A DNA stretch of 64,000 nucleotides, taken from the IMG/VR virus record IMGVR_UViG_2585427757_000006, one strand, 5' to 3'. The position numbers and the translations under genes are program-made. Position 1 is the first letter of the stretch. Every line of letters begins with the position of its first letter. Origin of the DNA: a virus. Taxonomy: Duplodnaviria; Heunggongvirae; Uroviricota; Caudoviricetes. The notes under the pieces are model-generated. The model was not told the origin of the DNA and made no database searches. It worked only from the letters and a program-made list of their open reading frames with translations. Positions 4,641 to 8,911 of the stretch are shown in pieces.

Positions 4641-4890
4641 ATGACAATCACCGAGTTACGCCGATTCACTGTATAAGTAAACAGTATATTAGGCATAGAT
4701 TCTTATAGGATCAAGAGTAAAAGTAACTCATTTTCAGTAATGATTCCATACATAGTAGGTATGGAATCATTGTGGGCCTTTTTTATAAAATCTGTGATTC
4801 TTCTCAGGATAAATTATCTAAACTAAAAATTGTGTTTTGTGTTGGCATCTGCTTGAATAGACGCATGTTTATTCAGATATGGAATAATCA

Positions 4891-5427
4891 GTGAACAACC
4901 AAATTCATTGGGACTACCCATTCTCAGAAGAATTCGGCAGTGGGATGGTACACAGACAATTCACTGTGGGAAGCACTATTTATGCCGTTGGGTTTGAACA
5001 AATATTGACGATGGATGATTTCACACGTAAGGGAGTTGATATCCTAAATGTACATCCAACATTCCGGTTTCCTCTGAGTGGTGTATGGGGAGTGATTTTT
5101 GACGAAATTGACCCTGTAGAAATGGATTTCAAAGGATTTCGGCATATCCAACATCAAGGCTTGGCAGGTGGTCAAGTGCTTTTGAATGTTGCAAGTATAA
5201 TCTTTGACCATTATACTGTTTGTAACGCAGGAGCTTATGTCTTCTCCGCCGCAGACGACCATCAGCATTTACGCAGAACTGACTTGGTTGACATTTACTG
5301 TAAGATACTAGGTCTAAATGGAAAACGTAAAAGTAGATTGTTCGCCAATGGTTTTCCTGGATGGGAGGCATACTGTGATGTACCAACAGGAGGAAGAGGC
5401 TATGTCGTCACGACTGAAAGTTATTAA
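4891..5427 (+). CDS. hypothetical protein (GTG start)
   Basis: 178-aa ORF on the minority strand; no motif recognised. Confidence 0.4.
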   Translation: MNNQIHWDYPFSEEFGSGMVHRQFTVGSTIYAVGFEQILTMDDFTRKGVDILNVHPTFRFPLSGVWGVIFDEIDPVEMDFKGFRHIQHQGLAGGQVLLNVASIIFDHYTVCNAGAYVFSAADDHQHLRRTDLVDIYCKILGLNGKRKSRLFANGFPGWEAYCDVPTGGRGYVVTTESY

Positions 5428-5629
5428 TTATTACCCCACCTCTGCAGAACGTTTGAGCCTTGAAATGGGCGAAAGACTACAGAAAGCTGCTGGTCAGGAT
5501 TTAAAGAACAAGTTGGGTTCAGGGGAAATTAAACTGATTAACGGTAAATATGTAGGTGAAAGCCTGAAAGTTAATAGCACCTCTATGCTAAAAGCGCGGT
5601 TGCGTAAAGCGTATATCCCCGCTAAATGA
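5318..5629 (+). CDS. hypothetical protein (true start probably internal, near 5402)
   Basis: 103-aa ORF overlapping previous ORF; followed immediately by hairpin terminator. Confidence 0.3.
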   Translation: MENVKVDCSPMVFLDGRHTVMYQQEEEAMSSRLKVINYYPTSAERLSLEMGERLQKAAGQDLKNKLGSGEIKLINGKYVGESLKVNSTSMLKARLRKAYIPAK

Positions 5630-5655
5630 AAAGGCCTATATGGGCCTTTTCATTT
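5628..5655. terminator. bidirectional intrinsic terminator between convergent genes
   Basis: Hairpin aaaaggcc-tatat-gggcctttt followed by T-run on plus strand (A-run upstream serves minus strand). Confidence 0.5.
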
Positions 5656-5901
5656 TTATAGTGTACTCACCAGCGCCGCAAATTCCGTATACCCCCCAAT
5701 ATGCTCTCCATGTATGAATATCTGAGGTATGGTATCCACTGGTTTACCAACCAGGTTGCTCAACGTTTCTTTGTTGATCCCCGCAGATGTAATATCTATA
5801 TACTCATAATCACCGTAGCCATGTCCCTTTAGTTGCTTCGCCAACTCGACCGCACGTTTGCAGTATGAGCAGTTATCTCGTCCGTAGATAGTGATCGTCA
5901 T
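5656..5901 (-). CDS. glutaredoxin-like protein (NrdH/Grx type)
   Basis: 81-aa ORF with N-terminal CSYC redox motif (TIYGRDNCSYCKRA) and thioredoxin-fold length. Confidence 0.8.
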   Translation of the reverse strand: MTITIYGRDNCSYCKRAVELAKQLKGHGYGDYEYIDITSAGINKETLSNLVGKPVDTIPQIFIHGEHIGGYTEFAALVSTL

Positions 5902-6074
5902 AACTTAACAAATACCTTTATAAATATTGATTCGAACATATCAGACTATACTACAAACAGATTTTTTTGATAAGTATGTAGTAACTTATTGATTGACTAG
6001 TAAACAATTGAAGTGATTACGACAATAGATTACAGTAAGGATTGCCTTGAAATGTACATTTTATAGAGGTTTTA

Positions 6075-6983
6075 ATGATTGGTAAGTTGTCTGATTCTTT
6101 GATTGAAAATAAATACAACGAATTTAGAGAAGAAATATCTTTACTTTTTGACTATTTAAATCAGATAAATGATACAACAAAGAAAAATATAAAACGTCTT
6201 CTTAAAGAAGTGGAGTATGCACAAAATCCAGATACTATTATTAATATTAATGAAACTATTAAGATTAAGTGTGGCACAACGTTAGCTCGCCATTTATGTT
6301 CAAACCCATATACAGGTTCAACATTAGAGATAGGTAACAGCGCCATTGATTTAGAAGAAAAGATAAGATTGTGTAATACTTTGAAAAATAAACAATATCA
6401 GTGGGTTATTACTGAAGCCTATGAGTTACTGGAAGACTATATTGAGGCAATATATGTCTATACTGTATGTGTTCGAAATGATTTATGGTCCTCAAGTGAT
6501 TTTGGTAAGGTTGAAGATGATGAAATTGGGAAAAGGGAAGTTTATTACAGATTATTAAAAGCAAAAAGTAACCCATCGAAAAAAATAACTAAAATTTTCA
6601 GAAATAAAATACCTGGCTTCAAAGAGATAGAAACAAACAACAAGATTGGCAAAAACTATCGCTTTAACATCAAGCTAATTGAACTACTAAGACATACAAT
6701 AGTACACAATAGTGGACGATTCAATGATACAGAAAAATTTATAAATAAGGTTTTAGATGAATCTGAAATAAACGGTAAGAAAAGAGTTATTGGAGAAAGA
6801 GCTGTTAGAAGTTACATTACTAAAGTGCAAGAAGATGATATTGTGATGCTCTTAGAAAGACCATCTGAAATTTTAGGTTCTTTTGGTGGGTATTTTAACA
6901 GAGCAAAATTTTTACTAAGTGATATTTTAGAATACTCACTAATCATTAAAGAAGAACTAAAATCATATCTAGGCAATCATTAA
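6075..6983 (+). CDS. AT-rich orphan protein; candidate HEPN-type abortive-infection-like protein
   Basis: 302-aa ORF; markedly AT-rich compared with flanks; contains R-x4-H motif (RHTIVH); plus strand amid minus-strand genes; own terminator. Confidence 0.5.
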   Translation: MIGKLSDSLIENKYNEFREEISLLFDYLNQINDTTKKNIKRLLKEVEYAQNPDTIININETIKIKCGTTLARHLCSNPYTGSTLEIGNSAIDLEEKIRLCNTLKNKQYQWVITEAYELLEDYIEAIYVYTVCVRNDLWSSSDFGKVEDDEIGKREVYYRLLKAKSNPSKKITKIFRNKIPGFKEIETNNKIGKNYRFNIKLIELLRHTIVHNSGRFNDTEKFINKVLDESEINGKKRVIGERAVRSYITKVQEDDIVMLLERPSEILGSFGGYFNRAKFLLSDILEYSLIIKEELKSYLGNH

Positions 6984-6986
6984 CAA

Positions 6987-7016
6987 AAAAGGGGCCGAAG
7001 CCCCTTTGGATTTTGC
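6987..7016 (+). terminator. intrinsic terminator
   Basis: Hairpin aaaggggc-cgaa-gcccctttgg followed by ttttg. Confidence 0.55.
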
Positions 7017-7081
7017 GCTTAAAAAAGTGTTGCTAGGATGTTAGCAAGCTATGGTTAAGAACGTCTGCCGTAATTGTCTAT

Positions 7082-7471: not shown

Positions 7472-7548
7472 TTGGTGCCGGTTAGCGGACTCGAACCGCT
7501 GACATCCTGCTTACAAGGCAGGCGCTCTACCAACTGAGCTAAACCGGC
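7472..7548 (-). tRNA. tRNA-Thr (anticodon TGT)
   Basis: Reverse complement GCCGGTT...AGCTCAGTTGGTAGAGC...CCTGC-CTTGTAA-GCAGG...GGTTCGAGTCC...AACCGGCACCA. Confidence 0.85.
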
Positions 7549-7552
7549 AATT

Positions 7553-7639
7553 TGGTGGGGAGTGATGGAGTCGAACCACCCGAGTCGCAATGACAGTAGA
7601 TTTACAGTCTACCCCGCTGCCCCTACGGACTAACTCCCC
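7553..7639 (-). tRNA. tRNA-Tyr (anticodon GTA), long variable arm
   Basis: Reverse complement GGGGAGT...GTAGA-CTGTAAA-TCTAC...GGTTCGACTCC...ACTCCCCACCA. Confidence 0.8.
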
Positions 7640-7644
7640 TAAAT

Positions 7645-7719
7645 TGGCGATGGTGGGTGGATTCGAACCACCGACCAGTTGGTTAACAGCCAACTGCTCT
7701 ACCGCTGAGCTACACCATC
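7645..7719 (-). tRNA. tRNA-Asn (anticodon GTT)
   Basis: Reverse complement GATGGTGTAGCTCAGCGGTAGAGC...GTTGG-CTGTTAA-CCAAC...GGTTCGAATCC...CACCATCGCCA. Confidence 0.85.
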
Positions 7720-7985
7720 AATTCAGCACTGCCAGTATTTATTACTCAACAGTGCCAATCGCGACGGTTTAGTTTCTGCCAGGAAACGCACCGCTACTTG
7801 CACTTTTCGTTTGTGCCAGACGCTTTCGACTTCGCTCAATAGTAGAAGGCAAAATCTTTAAGTAGATGATGTTTCTGAGGACAGCACCTACTTTGTAATT
7901 TATACAATGTGATGTATGGAATCATTTGTTGTGAAAACAGGCACCAATGGCAACAGTGGTTAAACCTACACAACAATCCTGTCTT

Positions 7986-8107
7986 CACAACGTTGAGGCC
8001 ACTACTCCGATTGAATGTTTGCCCAACATGTTACATATCAACGCTCGCCGGTATCTCTGTGAATAGAACCTTAGAATTGATAAAAATGTAATGGCCTCAA
8101 CGTTGTG
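7986..8107. repeat. perfect 15-bp inverted repeat (cacaacgttgaggcc / ggcctcaacgttgtg) flanking ~92 bp; arm sequence related to the 7082-7159 repeat
   Basis: Arms at 7986-8000 and 8093-8107 are exact reverse complements; share core CTCAACGYTGTG with the other repeat. Confidence 0.75.
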
Positions 8108-8471
8108 TGCTGGCTAACCATACCAGCCGGGCTACGTCGCCGCTTTTTAACCCAGTATAAACGACATAATTGAACAAAATGACGTAACAGGATGGGCGGT
8201 CAGTGGCTAAGAATCCGGGAGTCATATGGAGTTGAAAATATACCAACCGCCCATTCTGTTCCCTCCTGCGTTCTGCAATCACACTCGCTCAGTGTGTCCC
8301 ATTTCGGTAACGAGGCTGGAAACTGACCTCGCTGGTGTTTGGCTTATTAGGCTACTGCCAGATAGACTTCTTCGTTTGCACTTGTATTTAAGTTCAAACA
8401 GTCGCGTCTCAACGAAAACAAAGTCATCTTATACATAAAAGATAAGTAAGTAAATACTTATCAATATGTTT

Positions 8472-8762
8472 TTATTCGGTTGTGACTTTTTTGATCAAGG
8501 CCACTCTACGACTAGGTGTTCTTGTAATGGTGGCAGTGAATCGTTTCGCTTGGATAGTAATGGTTTCGTTCTCCTTAAGTTGCCCGTAGCGAGTTTCCAC
8601 CAGGGTGCCAAGACGCCACAGACCATCATCGATACGTTTATGACTAGCAAATTTAATCAGCAACAGTTTTACGACTAACTGACCTACGTAAAAGGCGAAT
8701 GCGACTCCGGCCGCTAAGAAATAGGTGGCCAACCACCATTCCCAAGAAGTTAAATTGCTCAT
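8472..8762 (-). CDS. small membrane protein (N-terminal transmembrane helix)
   Basis: 96-aa ORF; hydrophobic N-terminus WEWWLATYFLAAGVAFAFYVGQLVV; start overlaps stop of upstream small ORF. Confidence 0.45.
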   Translation of the reverse strand: MSNLTSWEWWLATYFLAAGVAFAFYVGQLVVKLLLIKFASHKRIDDGLWRLGTLVETRYGQLKENETITIQAKRFTATITRTPSRRVALIKKVTTE

Positions 8763-8911
8763 TTTTTCACCTTTGTTTCATGAACTACCCGATACACACG
8801 CTTTCCGATGCACAGTGTTTTGGTTTTAAGTTCCTGCTTAATTAAATCACGACAGATGCCGAAGCCGATAAGGAAGCCACCCATAAAAGCTAATGAGATG
8901 TATGGAATCAT
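8759..8911 (-). CDS. putative small hydrophobic protein (MIPYISLAFMGGFLIGFGICRD...)
   Basis: Own translation, about 50 aa, below track cutoff; ATGA start/stop overlaps with both neighbours. Confidence 0.3.
   Translation of the reverse strand: MIPYISLAFMGGFLIGFGICRDLIKQELKTKTLCIGKRVYRVVHETKVKK

What the first reader, a model, noticed from the sequence alone, without database searches (positions are those of the whole stretch)
4739..8911. Repeated 13-14-bp sequence GTATGGAATCAT marks the 5' ends of several tiny hydrophobic ORFs
The sequence occurs at 4759-4771 (with inverted partner 4739-4750 forming a 12-bp hairpin plus T-run), 7909-7923 and 8897-8911. On the minus strand each encodes MIPY... 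peptides (18, 29 and about 50 aa). These could be a duplicated small-protein family (e.g. membrane toxin/holin-like) or a conserved start-region cassette.
Basis: seen in the sequence. Interest (0 to 1): 0.4.

Follow-up and report, generated by a model that had tools for sequence, protein, structure and literature searches.

The report
Integrase recombination site with dispersed half-sites
The repeated 12-base sequence is real, but its back-to-back pair is most likely the DNA site recognised by the neighbouring recombinase of a phage that lives as a plasmid. That site borders a slot where related elements swap cargo genes, and only one of the copies starts a real small-protein gene.

Summary
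GTATGGAATCAT occurs four times exactly, against 0.3 expected by chance, all within 4.2 kb.

The interpretation mostly fails.
- The pair at 4739-4771 is a perfect 13-7-13 inverted repeat, 100 bp upstream of a tyrosine recombinase gene (3537-4640, minus strand). The window is an SSU5-like phage-plasmid of E. coli.
- In 120 viral contigs and over 1000 plasmids this palindrome travels with homologues of that recombinase. Both arms change together in divergent homologues (TGATTCCATAC or TGACTCCAGAC, no hybrids), while the 7-bp spacer varies freely.
- All 255 matches to the integrase-palindrome segment (3537-4800) in complete E. coli genomes are on plasmids.
- The recombinase lacks an arm-binding domain.
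- BLAST-detectable homology between relatives ends at the outer arm. Beyond it lies variable cargo; in Yersinia pestis pMT1 this is the caf1 capsule operon.

Best reading: a lox/dif-like core site, probably for plasmid multimer resolution, bordering a cargo hotspot.

The 8900 copy is the true start of a conserved 50-aa membrane protein gene. The 7914 copy is a non-coding 15-mer whose ORF is not conserved. These copies, and another in the DNA polymerase gene outside the window, are conserved at the nucleotide level. Their role is unresolved; recombinase half-sites is my tentative guess.

This is a new member of a known kind, of moderate interest.

The parts
3537..4640 (-). Tyrosine recombinase ('integrase') gene, 367 aa. 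It has a core-binding domain and a catalytic domain but no arm-binding domain.
   Evidence: Pfam PF00589 and PF22022; phrog_1. Family members lack PF13356, which the nearest P4-like integrases carry. R185, R284 and Y316 are invariant; K211 and H307 are nearly invariant. The AF2 model has pLDDT 86 with an all-helical N-terminal half. Best Foldseek matches are Tn1549 Int 82-397 and lambda Int 75-356.
4739..4771 (.). Proposed core recombination site: arms AATGATTCCATAC (4739-4751) and GTATGGAATCATT (4759-4771) around the 7-bp spacer ATAGTAG (4752-4758).
   Evidence: The site lies 46-120 bp upstream of an integrase homologue in 113 of 120 viral-contig loci. Both arms change together with recombinase class. 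The spacer varies.
4772..4796 (+). Degenerate conserved element on the cargo side of the core (T-tract 4779-4784, AAAATCTG 4787-4794). It may be accessory sequence of the site.
   Evidence: The consensus TT.Aag.gcg.TTTttT.AAaTcT is shared by 45 otherwise unrelated distal flanks of arm types A, B and C. It does not covary with the arms. Its function is inferred only.
4797..7081 (.). Variable cargo slot. Here it holds ORFs 4891-5427 and 5318-5629 (+), glutaredoxin 5656-5901 (-) and the 302-aa phrog_35492 gene 6075-6983 (+). Its far boundary differs from relative to relative.
   Evidence: Homology to relatives stops at 4771 and resumes at 5675 (L002), 7082 (L003) or in patches (L001). Among loci with the identical arm and spacer there are 7 distal flank classes against 1 proximal class.
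7911..7925 (-). Lone non-coding 15-mer ATGATTCCATACATC (minus strand), about 190 nt upstream of tRNA-Asn in the direction of transcription.
   Evidence: It is an island of identity in diverged non-coding DNA across lineages. Its ORF is not conserved. It reads GTG... in the lineage whose palindrome arms also read GTG....
8897..8911 (-). The same 15-mer as the first five codons (MIPYI) of the 50-aa gene. Its ATG overlaps the TGA stop codon of the upstream 71-aa gene.
   Evidence: In the distinct gene sequences collected, the 11 bases TGATTCCATAC never vary and the start base is A or G, while flanking and later positions vary. The type-B relative L012 keeps the peptide (M)IPY but not the DNA (TTGATCCCATAT).
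8759..8911 (-). 50-aa small membrane protein gene (phrog_6302), part of the coupled operon ligase, 59 aa, 71 aa, 50 aa, 96 aa.
4023..4034 (+). Weak copy inside the integrase gene (TTGATTCCAAAC, 2 mismatches here; 1 mismatch in other lineages). It encodes the conserved strand x-V-W-N-Q-G.
   Evidence: It is largely explained by protein constraint (W204 is invariant), so it is weak evidence.

Best explanation
The window is an SSU5-like phage-plasmid. The inverted pair at 4739-4771 is the core target site of the tyrosine recombinase encoded 100 bp away (3537-4640, minus strand). One recombinase monomer would bind each 13-bp arm, and strand exchange would occur across the 7-bp spacer, as in Cre/loxP or Xer/dif.

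The element is found only as a plasmid, carries one site per replicon, and tolerates any spacer. The most likely job is therefore to resolve plasmid multimers into monomers, the role Cre/loxP plays for P1.

The site also borders a hotspot where relatives carry different cargo. I infer that this arises through site-specific crossovers between co-resident replicons on the site side, combined with homologous or illegitimate events on the other side.

The other two copies are different things that share the arm sequence. The copy at 8897-8911 is the real start of a 50-aa membrane protein gene. The copy at 7911-7925 is a non-coding 15-mer. A further copy lies in the DNA polymerase gene just outside the window. 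All three are held constant at the nucleotide level. I tentatively read them as single-arm binding sites for the same recombinase, with unknown consequence.

Shown: the anatomy, the linkage to the recombinase gene, the arm covariation, the plasmid-only distribution, and the break in homology at the arm.
Inferred: binding, catalysis, the resolution role, and any role of the single copies.
For: 1. The copies are non-random: four exact copies against 0.32 expected. The stem is a perfect 13 bp; folded as DNA it gives -11.5 kcal/mol, z = -4.35.

2. The palindrome is linked to the recombinase gene. In 113 of them the palindrome lies 46-120 bp upstream of an integrase homologue of 39-100% identity. 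Four of the rest are cut by the locus end. Two have what looks, from its GTGCGCC start alone, like a group II intron between the site and the expected gene. One (L132) appears to be an orphan site.

3. Both arms change together with the recombinase.
- AATGATTCCATAC with integrases of roughly 60-100% identity.
- TGTGATTCCATAC with a roughly 59% class.
- TGTGACTCCAGAC in Pantoea, Xenorhabdus and related plasmids (about 47-52% identity) that have no phage genes or HTH neighbour.
- Arms carrying only one of the two core changes, or a change at the neighbouring position, gave 0 hits in IMG/VR.

4. The spacer is always 7 bp, but at least 20 different spacers occur. Some occur in both orientations.

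5. The element is plasmid-only. In 5426 complete E. coli genomes there are 255 places, 0 on chromosomes, with a median of 1 per genome. Nearly all listed alignments end at query base 1235, which is window 4771. In PLSDB, 1081 records match, 989 of them non-mobilizable.

6. The recombinase is of the simple type and looks catalytically intact. It has no PF13356 arm-binding domain. R185, R284 and Y316 are invariant and K211 and H307 nearly invariant. The fold is core-binding plus catalytic, as in lambda Int 75-356 and Tn1549 Int.

7. The site marks a junction. Homology to L002 and L003 ends at 4771. Among 39 loci with the identical arm and spacer there are 7 distal flank classes against 1 proximal class. 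The pMT1 caf island abuts the outer arm.

8. There is a methodological precedent. Searching for palindromes with 13-15-bp repeats and a gap of up to 8 within 1 kb of a tyrosine recombinase gene predicted working sites about half the time (PMC10250229).

9. The single copies are conserved as DNA.
- The 15-mer is an identity island in diverged DNA.
- Synonymous positions are fixed in the 50-aa gene start.
- In the polymerase, the motif encodes CMESL inside a variable loop in every type-A lineage found that covers the polymerase start (among the deep lineages, one locus, L118), and is absent with a different peptide in type-B lineages and L025.
- All copies cluster within 10.3 kb of a 107-kb genome.
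Against: - No binding or recombination data exist for this family. I found no paper describing the site.
- The resolution role is an inference from distribution. A host Xer-dependent site or another system could do that job instead.
- The element conserved beyond the distal arm does not covary with the arms, so the true limits of the site are uncertain.
- For the single copies, the conserved ATC extension is never the spacer edge of a palindrome.
- Type-C elements have no single copies.
- No relative shows a deletion or an inversion with an endpoint at a single copy.
- The A-to-G match between the arms and the lone copy in type B rests on a single lineage, and L017 breaks the pattern at the 50-aa gene start.
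- The integrase-internal copy is mostly explained by protein constraint.
- SSU5, which lacks the integrase, keeps the copies. It appears to be a recent deletion derivative, so this says little either way.
Confidence: 0.6

Rival explanations
1. The palindrome is a capture platform rather than, or as well as, a resolution site. The recombinase would insert circular DNA next to its own gene, as an integron integrase does at attI. The single-arm copies would be old hybrid junctions or secondary partner sites.
For: Cargo always begins next to the outer arm, and turnover is greatest closest to the site. The caf1 island of pMT1 ends at the arm. The first cargo gene of Cyrano is the most highly expressed plasmid gene in lysogens, 723 times background (PMC9928086). 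All single copies face inward toward the palindrome, the arrangement expected after insertion of circles that carry a one-arm site. By my own knowledge, Rci/sfx shows that a tyrosine recombinase can use sites with only one conserved arm.
Against: No second site or recognisable half-site lies at the far end of any cargo block. Spacer-side sequences of the single copies (xxxxGAT) never match the palindrome spacer of the same genome. Far boundaries fall at gene ends or terminators, as in ordinary phage mosaicism. No locus carries two palindromes.
Confidence: 0.15
2. The dispersed 15-mers act at the RNA level. The lone copy and the 50-aa gene start are sense (AUGAUUCCAUACAUC). The polymerase, integrase-internal and one palindrome-arm copies are exactly complementary on the same transcribed strand. 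An RNA from the tRNA-leader region could therefore pair with polymerase or integrase mRNA, like the P1 c4 or P4 CI antisense systems.
For: All genes here lie on one strand, and the copies fall into sense and complementary sets. The lone copy sits in a conserved, structured non-coding region next to tRNA genes and is itself predicted to be unpaired. The type-B A-to-G change would keep G-U pairing. The tRNA region is transcribed in Cyrano lysogens (CYRAN_40 at 15 times background).
Against: The same sequence forms a DNA palindrome that follows the recombinase into non-phage plasmids, which an RNA model does not explain. The polymerase target is at codon 85, not at a translation start. There is no promoter or terminator evidence for a discrete small RNA and no Rfam hit. 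Flanks show no consistent compensatory pairing (my reading).
Confidence: 0.12
3. The palindrome is the attP core for integration of the phage-plasmid into a chromosome.
For: The gene is annotated as an integrase and is distantly related to P4-like integrases. The 7-bp spacer equals the overlap length of lambda-type core sites (my own knowledge).
Against: There are 0 chromosomal places among 255 in 5426 complete E. coli genomes. The protein has no arm-binding domain. The spacer, which would have to match an attB, differs between close relatives. Homologues sit on plasmids and megaplasmids.
Confidence: 0.05
4. The palindrome is an operator for the neighbouring HTH protein (3156-3542) or another regulator, or simply a transcription terminator, with no role in recombination.
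For: It lies about 30 bp from a plausible integrase promoter, which I read by eye as TTGATC, 17 nt, TAATAT on the minus strand at 4714-4686. That match is below the scan threshold. The terminator scan lists the hairpin. An HTH 'putative repressor' gene is adjacent.
Against: Pantoea plasmids keep the palindrome and recombinase without the HTH gene. The arms are conserved as sequence and switch in a coordinated way with the recombinase class; they are not free to covary as a stem would be. The T-run is 8 nt from the stem and is not conserved. Autoregulation by the recombinase itself remains compatible with the main explanation.
Confidence: 0.05
5. One reading: the motif is a start cassette of a duplicated family of tiny hydrophobic proteins (toxin or holin-like).
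For: The 50-aa protein is real and has a hydrophobic N-terminus. MIPY is kept at the protein level even where the DNA differs. It has a paralogue.
Against: Two of the three ORFs are not conserved and lack ribosome-binding sites. The paralogue lacks the motif. Conservation includes synonymous sites and a copy on the antisense strand of the polymerase gene. No toxin, holin or defence family matches.
Confidence: 0.03

Closest known systems
Cre/loxP of phage-plasmid P1 and other Cre-type simple tyrosine recombinase systems (Dre/rox, Vika/vox, Panto/pox)
   Same: A recombinase without an arm-binding domain. One target made of two 13-bp inverted repeats around a short asymmetric spacer, placed next to the recombinase gene. 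Carried by a phage that lives as a plasmid, where Cre resolves dimers (loxP anatomy from PMC10250229; the P1 role is my own knowledge).
   Different: The spacer is 7 bp, not 8. There is no detectable sequence similarity to Cre (no PDB sequence hit at all). The fold match is better to lambda and Tn1549 integrases (E about 1e-6) than to Cre (E 0.03-0.1). A conserved element lies beyond one arm. Extra single-arm copies are dispersed over 10 kb.
Lambda/P4-type phage integrases
   Same: Nearest relatives by sequence (PRK09692-like; P0114-P0120 at 26-34% identity) and by fold. The 7-bp crossover region has the same length.
   Different: No N-terminal arm-binding domain, no chromosomal integration seen, and a perfectly symmetric core.
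Plasmid and transposon resolution systems using tyrosine recombinases (XerCD at cer/psi/dif; TnpI/IRS of Tn4430)
   Same: The proposed role (multimer resolution) and the layout of a core site with extra conserved sequence on one side only (knowledge of cer and IRS is my own).
   Different: It uses its own recombinase, not host Xer. The arms are 13 bp, not 11. The one-sided element is short and is not a clear repeat of the arm.
Integron integrase with attI and the R64 shufflon recombinase Rci with sfx sites
   Same: Variable genes accumulate next to the recombinase gene at a fixed site, as in an integron. Sites with one conserved arm exist in several copies, as with sfx (my own knowledge).
   Different: No attC-like sites bound the cargo blocks, and no inversion or deletion isoforms ending at the single copies were found among 124 loci.

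Membership tests
Tyrosine recombinase superfamily (PF00589) | Catalytic domain with the Arg, Lys, His/Arg, Arg, His/Trp and Tyr residues | tested here: met
   PF00589 at E 2.9e-10. R185, R284 and Y316 invariant; K211 and H307 nearly invariant in 44 homologues. The fold matches lambda, Tn1549 and Xer recombinases.
Simple (Cre/Xer-like) recombinase-site systems | Recombinase has only core-binding and catalytic domains, with no arm-type DNA-binding domain | tested here: met
   The family lacks PF13356, which is present in the nearest P4-like integrases. The AF2 N-terminal half is all-helical.
Simple (Cre/Xer-like) recombinase-site systems | Target is two inverted recombinase-binding repeats around a 6-8 bp spacer, close to the gene and specific to the recombinase | tested here: met
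   13-7-13 architecture, 46-120 bp upstream in 113 of 120 loci. Both arms switch together with the recombinase class, and no hybrid arms occur.
Simple (Cre/Xer-like) recombinase-site systems | The recombinase binds and recombines the site | not testable with these tools
   This needs an in vivo deletion assay or an in vitro binding and cleavage assay.
Cre family proper | Sequence homology to Cre and a 34-bp site with an 8-bp spacer | tested here: not met
   No PDB sequence hit. Cre structures match only at E 0.03-0.1. The spacer is 7 bp.
Lambda/P4-type integrative phage integrases | Arm-binding domain, and integrated prophage forms with attL and attR | tested here: not met
   No PF13356 domain. 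0 of 255 E. coli places are chromosomal.
Plasmid multimer resolution system | One site per replicon, acting on directly repeated copies in a dimer; loss causes multimers and instability | tested here: inconclusive
   One site per locus and a median of one per genome, plasmid-only, with the spacer free to vary. All of this is compatible. The functional part is untested.
Integron | Cassettes bounded by attC-type sites downstream of attI | tested here: not met
   No repeated site or half-site at the far ends of cargo blocks. No excess of degenerate motif copies.
Shufflon-type multiple inversion system (Rci/sfx) | Segments between inverted one-arm sites are found in alternative orientations | tested here: not met
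   The order and orientation of all copies is the same in every locus examined.
   Only 8759-8911 is conserved and has a ribosome-binding site. It is translationally coupled within an operon. The other ORFs are not conserved. No Pfam or PADLOC hit.
Intrinsic terminator | G+C-rich stem directly followed by a U-run, conserved as structure | tested here: not met
   The stem is A+T-rich and the T-run starts 8 nt after it. The flank differs between relatives, and the arms are conserved as sequence.

The most novel reading that the evidence does not exclude
An arm-less tyrosine recombinase of SSU5-like phage-plasmids does more than resolve dimers. Its palindrome would be a docking point at which cargo, including the Y. 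pestis F1 capsule operon, is captured. The single-arm copies embedded in the polymerase gene, the tRNA leader and a small-gene start would be functional partners, either as secondary recombination sites or as recombinase-bound control points of the replication module. That would be a gene-capture or regulatory use of half-sites not described for this class.
Probability: 0.15. Interest if true: 0.75.

Novelty: new member of a known kind. Interest (0 to 1): 0.45.

Why it matters
SSU5-like phage-plasmids are common in E. coli, Klebsiella, Enterobacter, Salmonella (pHCM2) and Yersinia pestis (pMT1). Here, 252 of 5426 complete E. coli genomes and 1081 PLSDB records carry this recombinase.

If the palindrome is the recombinase's site, three things follow.
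- It names the maintenance function of a gene so far labelled only 'integrase'.
- It pinpoints the fixed edge of the slot where these elements exchange lysogeny-expressed cargo. The caf1 capsule operon lies there in pMT1, and published resistance-gene insertions in this group neighbour phoH and the DNA ligase gene (PMC9600943), which flank this region.
- It offers at least two natural, mutually exclusive recombinase-site specificities (TGATTCCATAC and TGACTCCAGAC arms) that could serve as orthogonal genome-engineering tools.

The nucleotide-level conservation of single-arm copies inside coding sequences is unexplained and is cheap to test.

Tried and rejected
- Degenerate copies: with up to 3 mismatches there is no excess over chance, so there is no diffuse motif family.
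- Rfam on 4000-9500 at E up to 1 found only the four tRNAs.
- Cargo far ends: I looked for a second site at the far boundaries (window versus L002, L003, L001, L005) and found none.
- A cryptic second arm next to the lone copies: at best 6 of 13 matches, and only in the window lineage (read).
- Type-C (Pantoea-type) loci were searched for single copies of their own arm; none found.
- An internal-copy match to type-C arms is weak (8 of 11) and explained by the W-x-Q-G peptide.
- Hairpin presentation of the 15-mer in RNA: flanking bases pair in some lineages (SSU5-type, L100) but not in others (read), so I dropped it.
- Consensus folding of the region from the lone copy to the tRNA found hairpins downstream but none involving the 15-mer.
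- GC skew is monotonic and uninformative about replication termini.
- I looked for integrase-less relatives as a natural control. SSU5's junction is unique among 822 plasmid relatives, so it appears to be a recent deletion and not an informative control.
- Hybrid or variant arms: three IMG/VR scans gave 0 hits.
- Literature searches for the sequence itself, for SSU5, pHCM2 or pMT1 with integrase, and for caf1R with integrase found no description of the site.
- PADLOC and Pfam scans of the small proteins and cargo ORFs found nothing useful.
- The other short perfect palindrome in the window (1707-1734) lies in an acidic coding repeat of the cobT-like gene and is unrelated.

Full report
**What the window is.** The region matches SSU5-like phage-plasmids. 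The closest relatives are Escherichia phage CMS-2020a (CP053388, 98% identity) and Cyrano, the plasmid-prophage of E. coli LF82. Around the finding, nearly all backbone genes lie on the minus strand. In order of transcription they are: DNA ligase (9283-10605), small genes of 59, 71, 50 and 96 aa, a roughly 750-nt non-coding stretch, four tRNA genes (7162-7719), a block of variable genes, a tyrosine recombinase annotated as integrase (3537-4640), a convergent HTH gene (3156-3542, plus strand) and a cobT-like gene.

**The observation.**
- GTATGGAATCAT occurs exactly four times: 4740-4751 on the minus strand, and 4759-4770, 7914-7925 and 8900-8911 on the plus strand. With up to one mismatch, 0.32 matches are expected, and none of 100 shuffles reached four.
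- Relaxing to three mismatches gives no excess.
- The first two copies are the arms of a perfect inverted repeat: 13-bp arms at 4739-4751 and 4759-4771, with the 7-bp spacer ATAGTAG.
- The two single copies share 15 nt with each other, and 21 of 22 nt in this lineage.
- I combined the window with the rest of the genome of the closest relative. The 11-mer TGATTCCATAC with up to one mismatch then occurs only six times in about 107.6 kb, all within 10.3 kb. These are the two arms, the two single copies, a copy in the DNA polymerase gene about 1.3 kb before the window start, and a weak copy inside the integrase gene.

**The palindrome belongs to the recombinase.**
In 113 of them the palindrome lies 46-120 bp upstream of a homologue of the window's recombinase (39-100% identity).
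- Of the other seven loci, four are cut by the locus end. Two have what looks, from its GTGCGCC start alone, like a group II intron where the gene should begin. One (L132) seems to be an orphan site.
- The arms track the protein. AATGATTCCATAC goes with recombinases of about 60-100% identity. TGTGATTCCATAC goes with a Klebsiella class of about 59%. TGTGACTCCAGAC goes with a class of about 47-52% found on Pantoea, Xenorhabdus and related plasmids. Those plasmids carry no phage genes and no HTH neighbour.
- Each change appears in both arms. Arms with only one of the two core changes, or with a change at the adjacent position, gave zero hits in IMG/VR. This is the pattern expected of a protein-binding repeat that co-evolves with its protein. 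It is not expected of a transcript hairpin, whose stem could drift freely.
- The spacer is always 7 bp but takes at least 20 different sequences. The same spacer is sometimes found in both orientations relative to the gene.

**The recombinase is of the simple type.** Its family consists of 360-380-aa proteins from Enterobacterales plasmids, megaplasmids and phage-plasmids. Members carry PF00589, and many also carry PF22022. They lack the arm-binding domain PF13356, which the nearest outgroup (P4-like integrases at 26-34% identity) possesses. R185, R284 and Y316 are invariant, and K211 and H307 nearly so. An AlphaFold model built on 44 sequences (pLDDT 86) shows an all-helical N-terminal half followed by the catalytic domain. 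The best structural matches are Tn1549 Int 82-397 and lambda Int 75-356, both of which are core-binding plus catalytic fragments, followed by XerA, XerH and IntI. Cre matches only weakly. No PDB chain matches by sequence.

**Distribution argues for resolution rather than integration.** In 5426 complete E. coli genomes the integrase-palindrome segment occurs at 255 places in 252 genomes. None is chromosomal, and the median is one per genome. A site that only has to recombine with its own sister copy in a dimer is free to change its spacer. A site that must match a chromosomal attB is not. Together with the missing arm-binding domain, this makes plasmid multimer resolution, the role of Cre/loxP in P1, the best-supported function. 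It remains an inference.

**The site borders a cargo slot.**
- BLAST homology between the window and L002 or L003 ends at 4771, the last base of the outer arm. It resumes at 5675 or at 7082.
- Nearly all listed E. coli alignments also end at 4771.
- Among 39 loci with identical arm and spacer there are seven classes of distal flank but one class of proximal flank. Other spacer groups behave the same way.
- The break is not quite at the arm. Most distal flanks of all three arm types share a degenerate element, TT.Aag.gcg.TTTttT.AAaTcT, which corresponds to window 4772-4796. It does not covary with the arms, so it may be accessory sequence or a host-factor site.
- In Y. pestis pMT1 the caf1R-caf1M-caf1A-caf1 island (L011 3103-8869) replaces everything from just after a conserved hairpin up to the outer end of the arm. 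Here even the accessory-like element is gone.
- In Cyrano, the first gene beyond the site (CYRAN_43) is expressed 723-fold above the prophage background in lysogens (PMC9928086).
- I found no site or half-site at the far ends of the cargo blocks. I therefore favour one site-specific crossover combined with ordinary recombination over integron-style cassette insertion.

**The two single copies.**
- The copy at 8897-8911 is the start of a real gene. It has an AGGAG ribosome-binding site, and its ATG overlaps the TGA stop codon of the upstream gene. It encodes a 50-aa product with a hydrophobic N-terminus and a basic tail, matching phrog_6302 at E 1e-36.
- The copy at 7911-7925 has no ribosome-binding site, and its reading frame is not conserved: five or six codons in most lineages, 29 here.
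- Even so, the 15-mer [A/G]TGATTCCATACATC is an island of identity in otherwise diverged non-coding DNA.
- In the 50-aa gene, the 11 bases TGATTCCATAC never vary and the start base is A or G across the collected gene sequences, while flanking positions and later codons vary.
- In the DnaE-like polymerase, the complementary copy encodes CMESL inside a loop whose neighbours vary. It is present in every type-A lineage found that covers the polymerase start (among the deep lineages, one locus, L118). In type-B lineages and in L025 the motif is absent and the loop encodes a different peptide.
- In type B, the 50-aa gene keeps the peptide (M)IPY with different codons. The lone copy there reads GTG..., like that lineage's palindrome arms.
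- All copies on one side of the palindrome have one orientation and all on the other side have the opposite one, so they all face inward.
- These facts show selection on the DNA or RNA sequence itself and a link to the arm sequence. They do not show what the copies do.

**How I rank the explanations for the single copies.**
- Single-arm recombinase binding sites come first, because the recombinase is the only factor for which this sequence has evidence of being a recognition element.
- Three observations weaken that reading. The conserved ATC extension is never a palindrome spacer edge. Type-C elements have no such copies. No relative shows a deletion or inversion ending at one.
- An RNA-pairing model, with sense copies upstream and complementary copies downstream on one transcribed strand, also fits the geometry and cannot be excluded.
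- SSU5, which lacks the recombinase, is not a useful control. Its junction is unique among 822 plasmid relatives, so the loss appears to be recent.

**Comparison with known systems.** In how it probably works, this is closest to Cre/loxP and other simple tyrosine recombinase systems. By descent, it is closest to lambda and P4-type integrases that have lost the arm-binding domain. It is not a member of the Cre family: there is no sequence similarity and the spacer is 7 bp. It is not an integron, because no attC-like sites were found. It is not a shufflon, because no inversion isoforms were found. Papers on SSU5-like elements mention the integrase only as an annotation, and I found no description of the site. 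A published pipeline that nominates palindromes with 13-15-bp repeats and a gap of up to 8 within 1 kb of such genes found working sites about half the time (PMC10250229). That sets a realistic prior for the untested step.

**Verdict.** The small-protein interpretation holds for one copy only. The main feature is a previously undescribed but conventional recombinase-site pair at the edge of a cargo hotspot. An unexplained set of conserved single-arm copies accompanies it.

Noticed in passing
L011 (Y. pestis pMT1, NZ_CP009702) 3103-8901; equivalent to window 4739-4771: The F1 capsule operon caf1R-caf1M-caf1A-caf1 fills the cargo slot. Its integrase-side end abuts the outer end of the palindrome arm. 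Its other end lies just after a conserved hairpin, and the insertion has removed tRNA-Asn and the lone 15-mer.
   Followed up: partly
window 7720-8470 and 7082-7159 (minus strand): A roughly 750-nt non-coding region upstream of the tRNA genes, conserved across relatives. It has long hairpins (7986-8005/8088-8107 and 8181-8200/8246-8265), and a similar hairpin follows tRNA-Ser (7082-7101/7140-7159); the first and last share CACA[A/G]CGTTGAG. A small conserved hairpin (GGCAC, 7 nt, GUGCC) shows a compensatory change in L005. There is no Rfam match. These may be stable RNAs co-transcribed with the tRNAs.
   Followed up: partly
L004 (phage SSU5) 7211-7373 versus window 2600-7640: SSU5 itself lacks the HTH gene, the recombinase, the palindrome and the cargo. 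Its cobT-to-tRNA-Asn junction is found in none of 822 related PLSDB plasmids, so the type phage looks like a recent deletion derivative that has lost this module.
   Followed up: partly
window 4772-4796 and the equivalent positions in 45 flank classes: A degenerate T-tract plus AAATCT element sits 8-25 nt beyond the outer arm. It is shared by recombinase classes with different arms. It may be accessory sequence or a host-factor site.
   Followed up: partly
L081 13225-14137 and L101 (Klebsiella-type relatives): About 85 nt after the palindrome, where the integrase gene should start, a sequence beginning GTGCGCCGGGAGACC is inserted. From its 5' end alone it may be a group II intron. The locus ends before any integrase sequence.
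   Followed up: no
L132 5271-5299: A type-C palindrome, with the accessory-like element on one side, that has no recombinase homologue within 5 kb on either side. It appears to be an orphan site.
   Followed up: no
L001 3909-4463 (CYRAN_43), the first gene beyond the palindrome in Cyrano: Reported at 723-fold above prophage background in LF82 lysogens (PMC9928086), so the slot next to the site holds lysogeny-expressed genes. The window carries different, unannotated ORFs in that position (4891-5427 and 5318-5629) with no family match.
   Followed up: no
window 7249-7472: A 220-bp stretch between tRNA-Ser and tRNA-Thr that is absent in Cyrano, where the two genes are adjacent. The tRNA complement also differs between relatives, from one to four genes.
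   Followed up: no
L012 2830-3460 (Klebsiella pCRKP18622-1): Several sequences resembling tRNA T-arms and acceptor ends (GGTTCGATTCC...CCA) that ARAGORN does not call as tRNAs, interleaved with long hairpins. The lone 15-mer there lies 14 nt after a called tRNA-Gln.
   Followed up: no
window 1707-1734: A perfect 12-bp inverted repeat with a 4-nt loop (TGATGATTCAGA/TCTGAATCATCA) inside the acidic repeat region of the 702-aa cobT-like gene. It looks like a coding coincidence, unrelated to the motif.
   Followed up: partly
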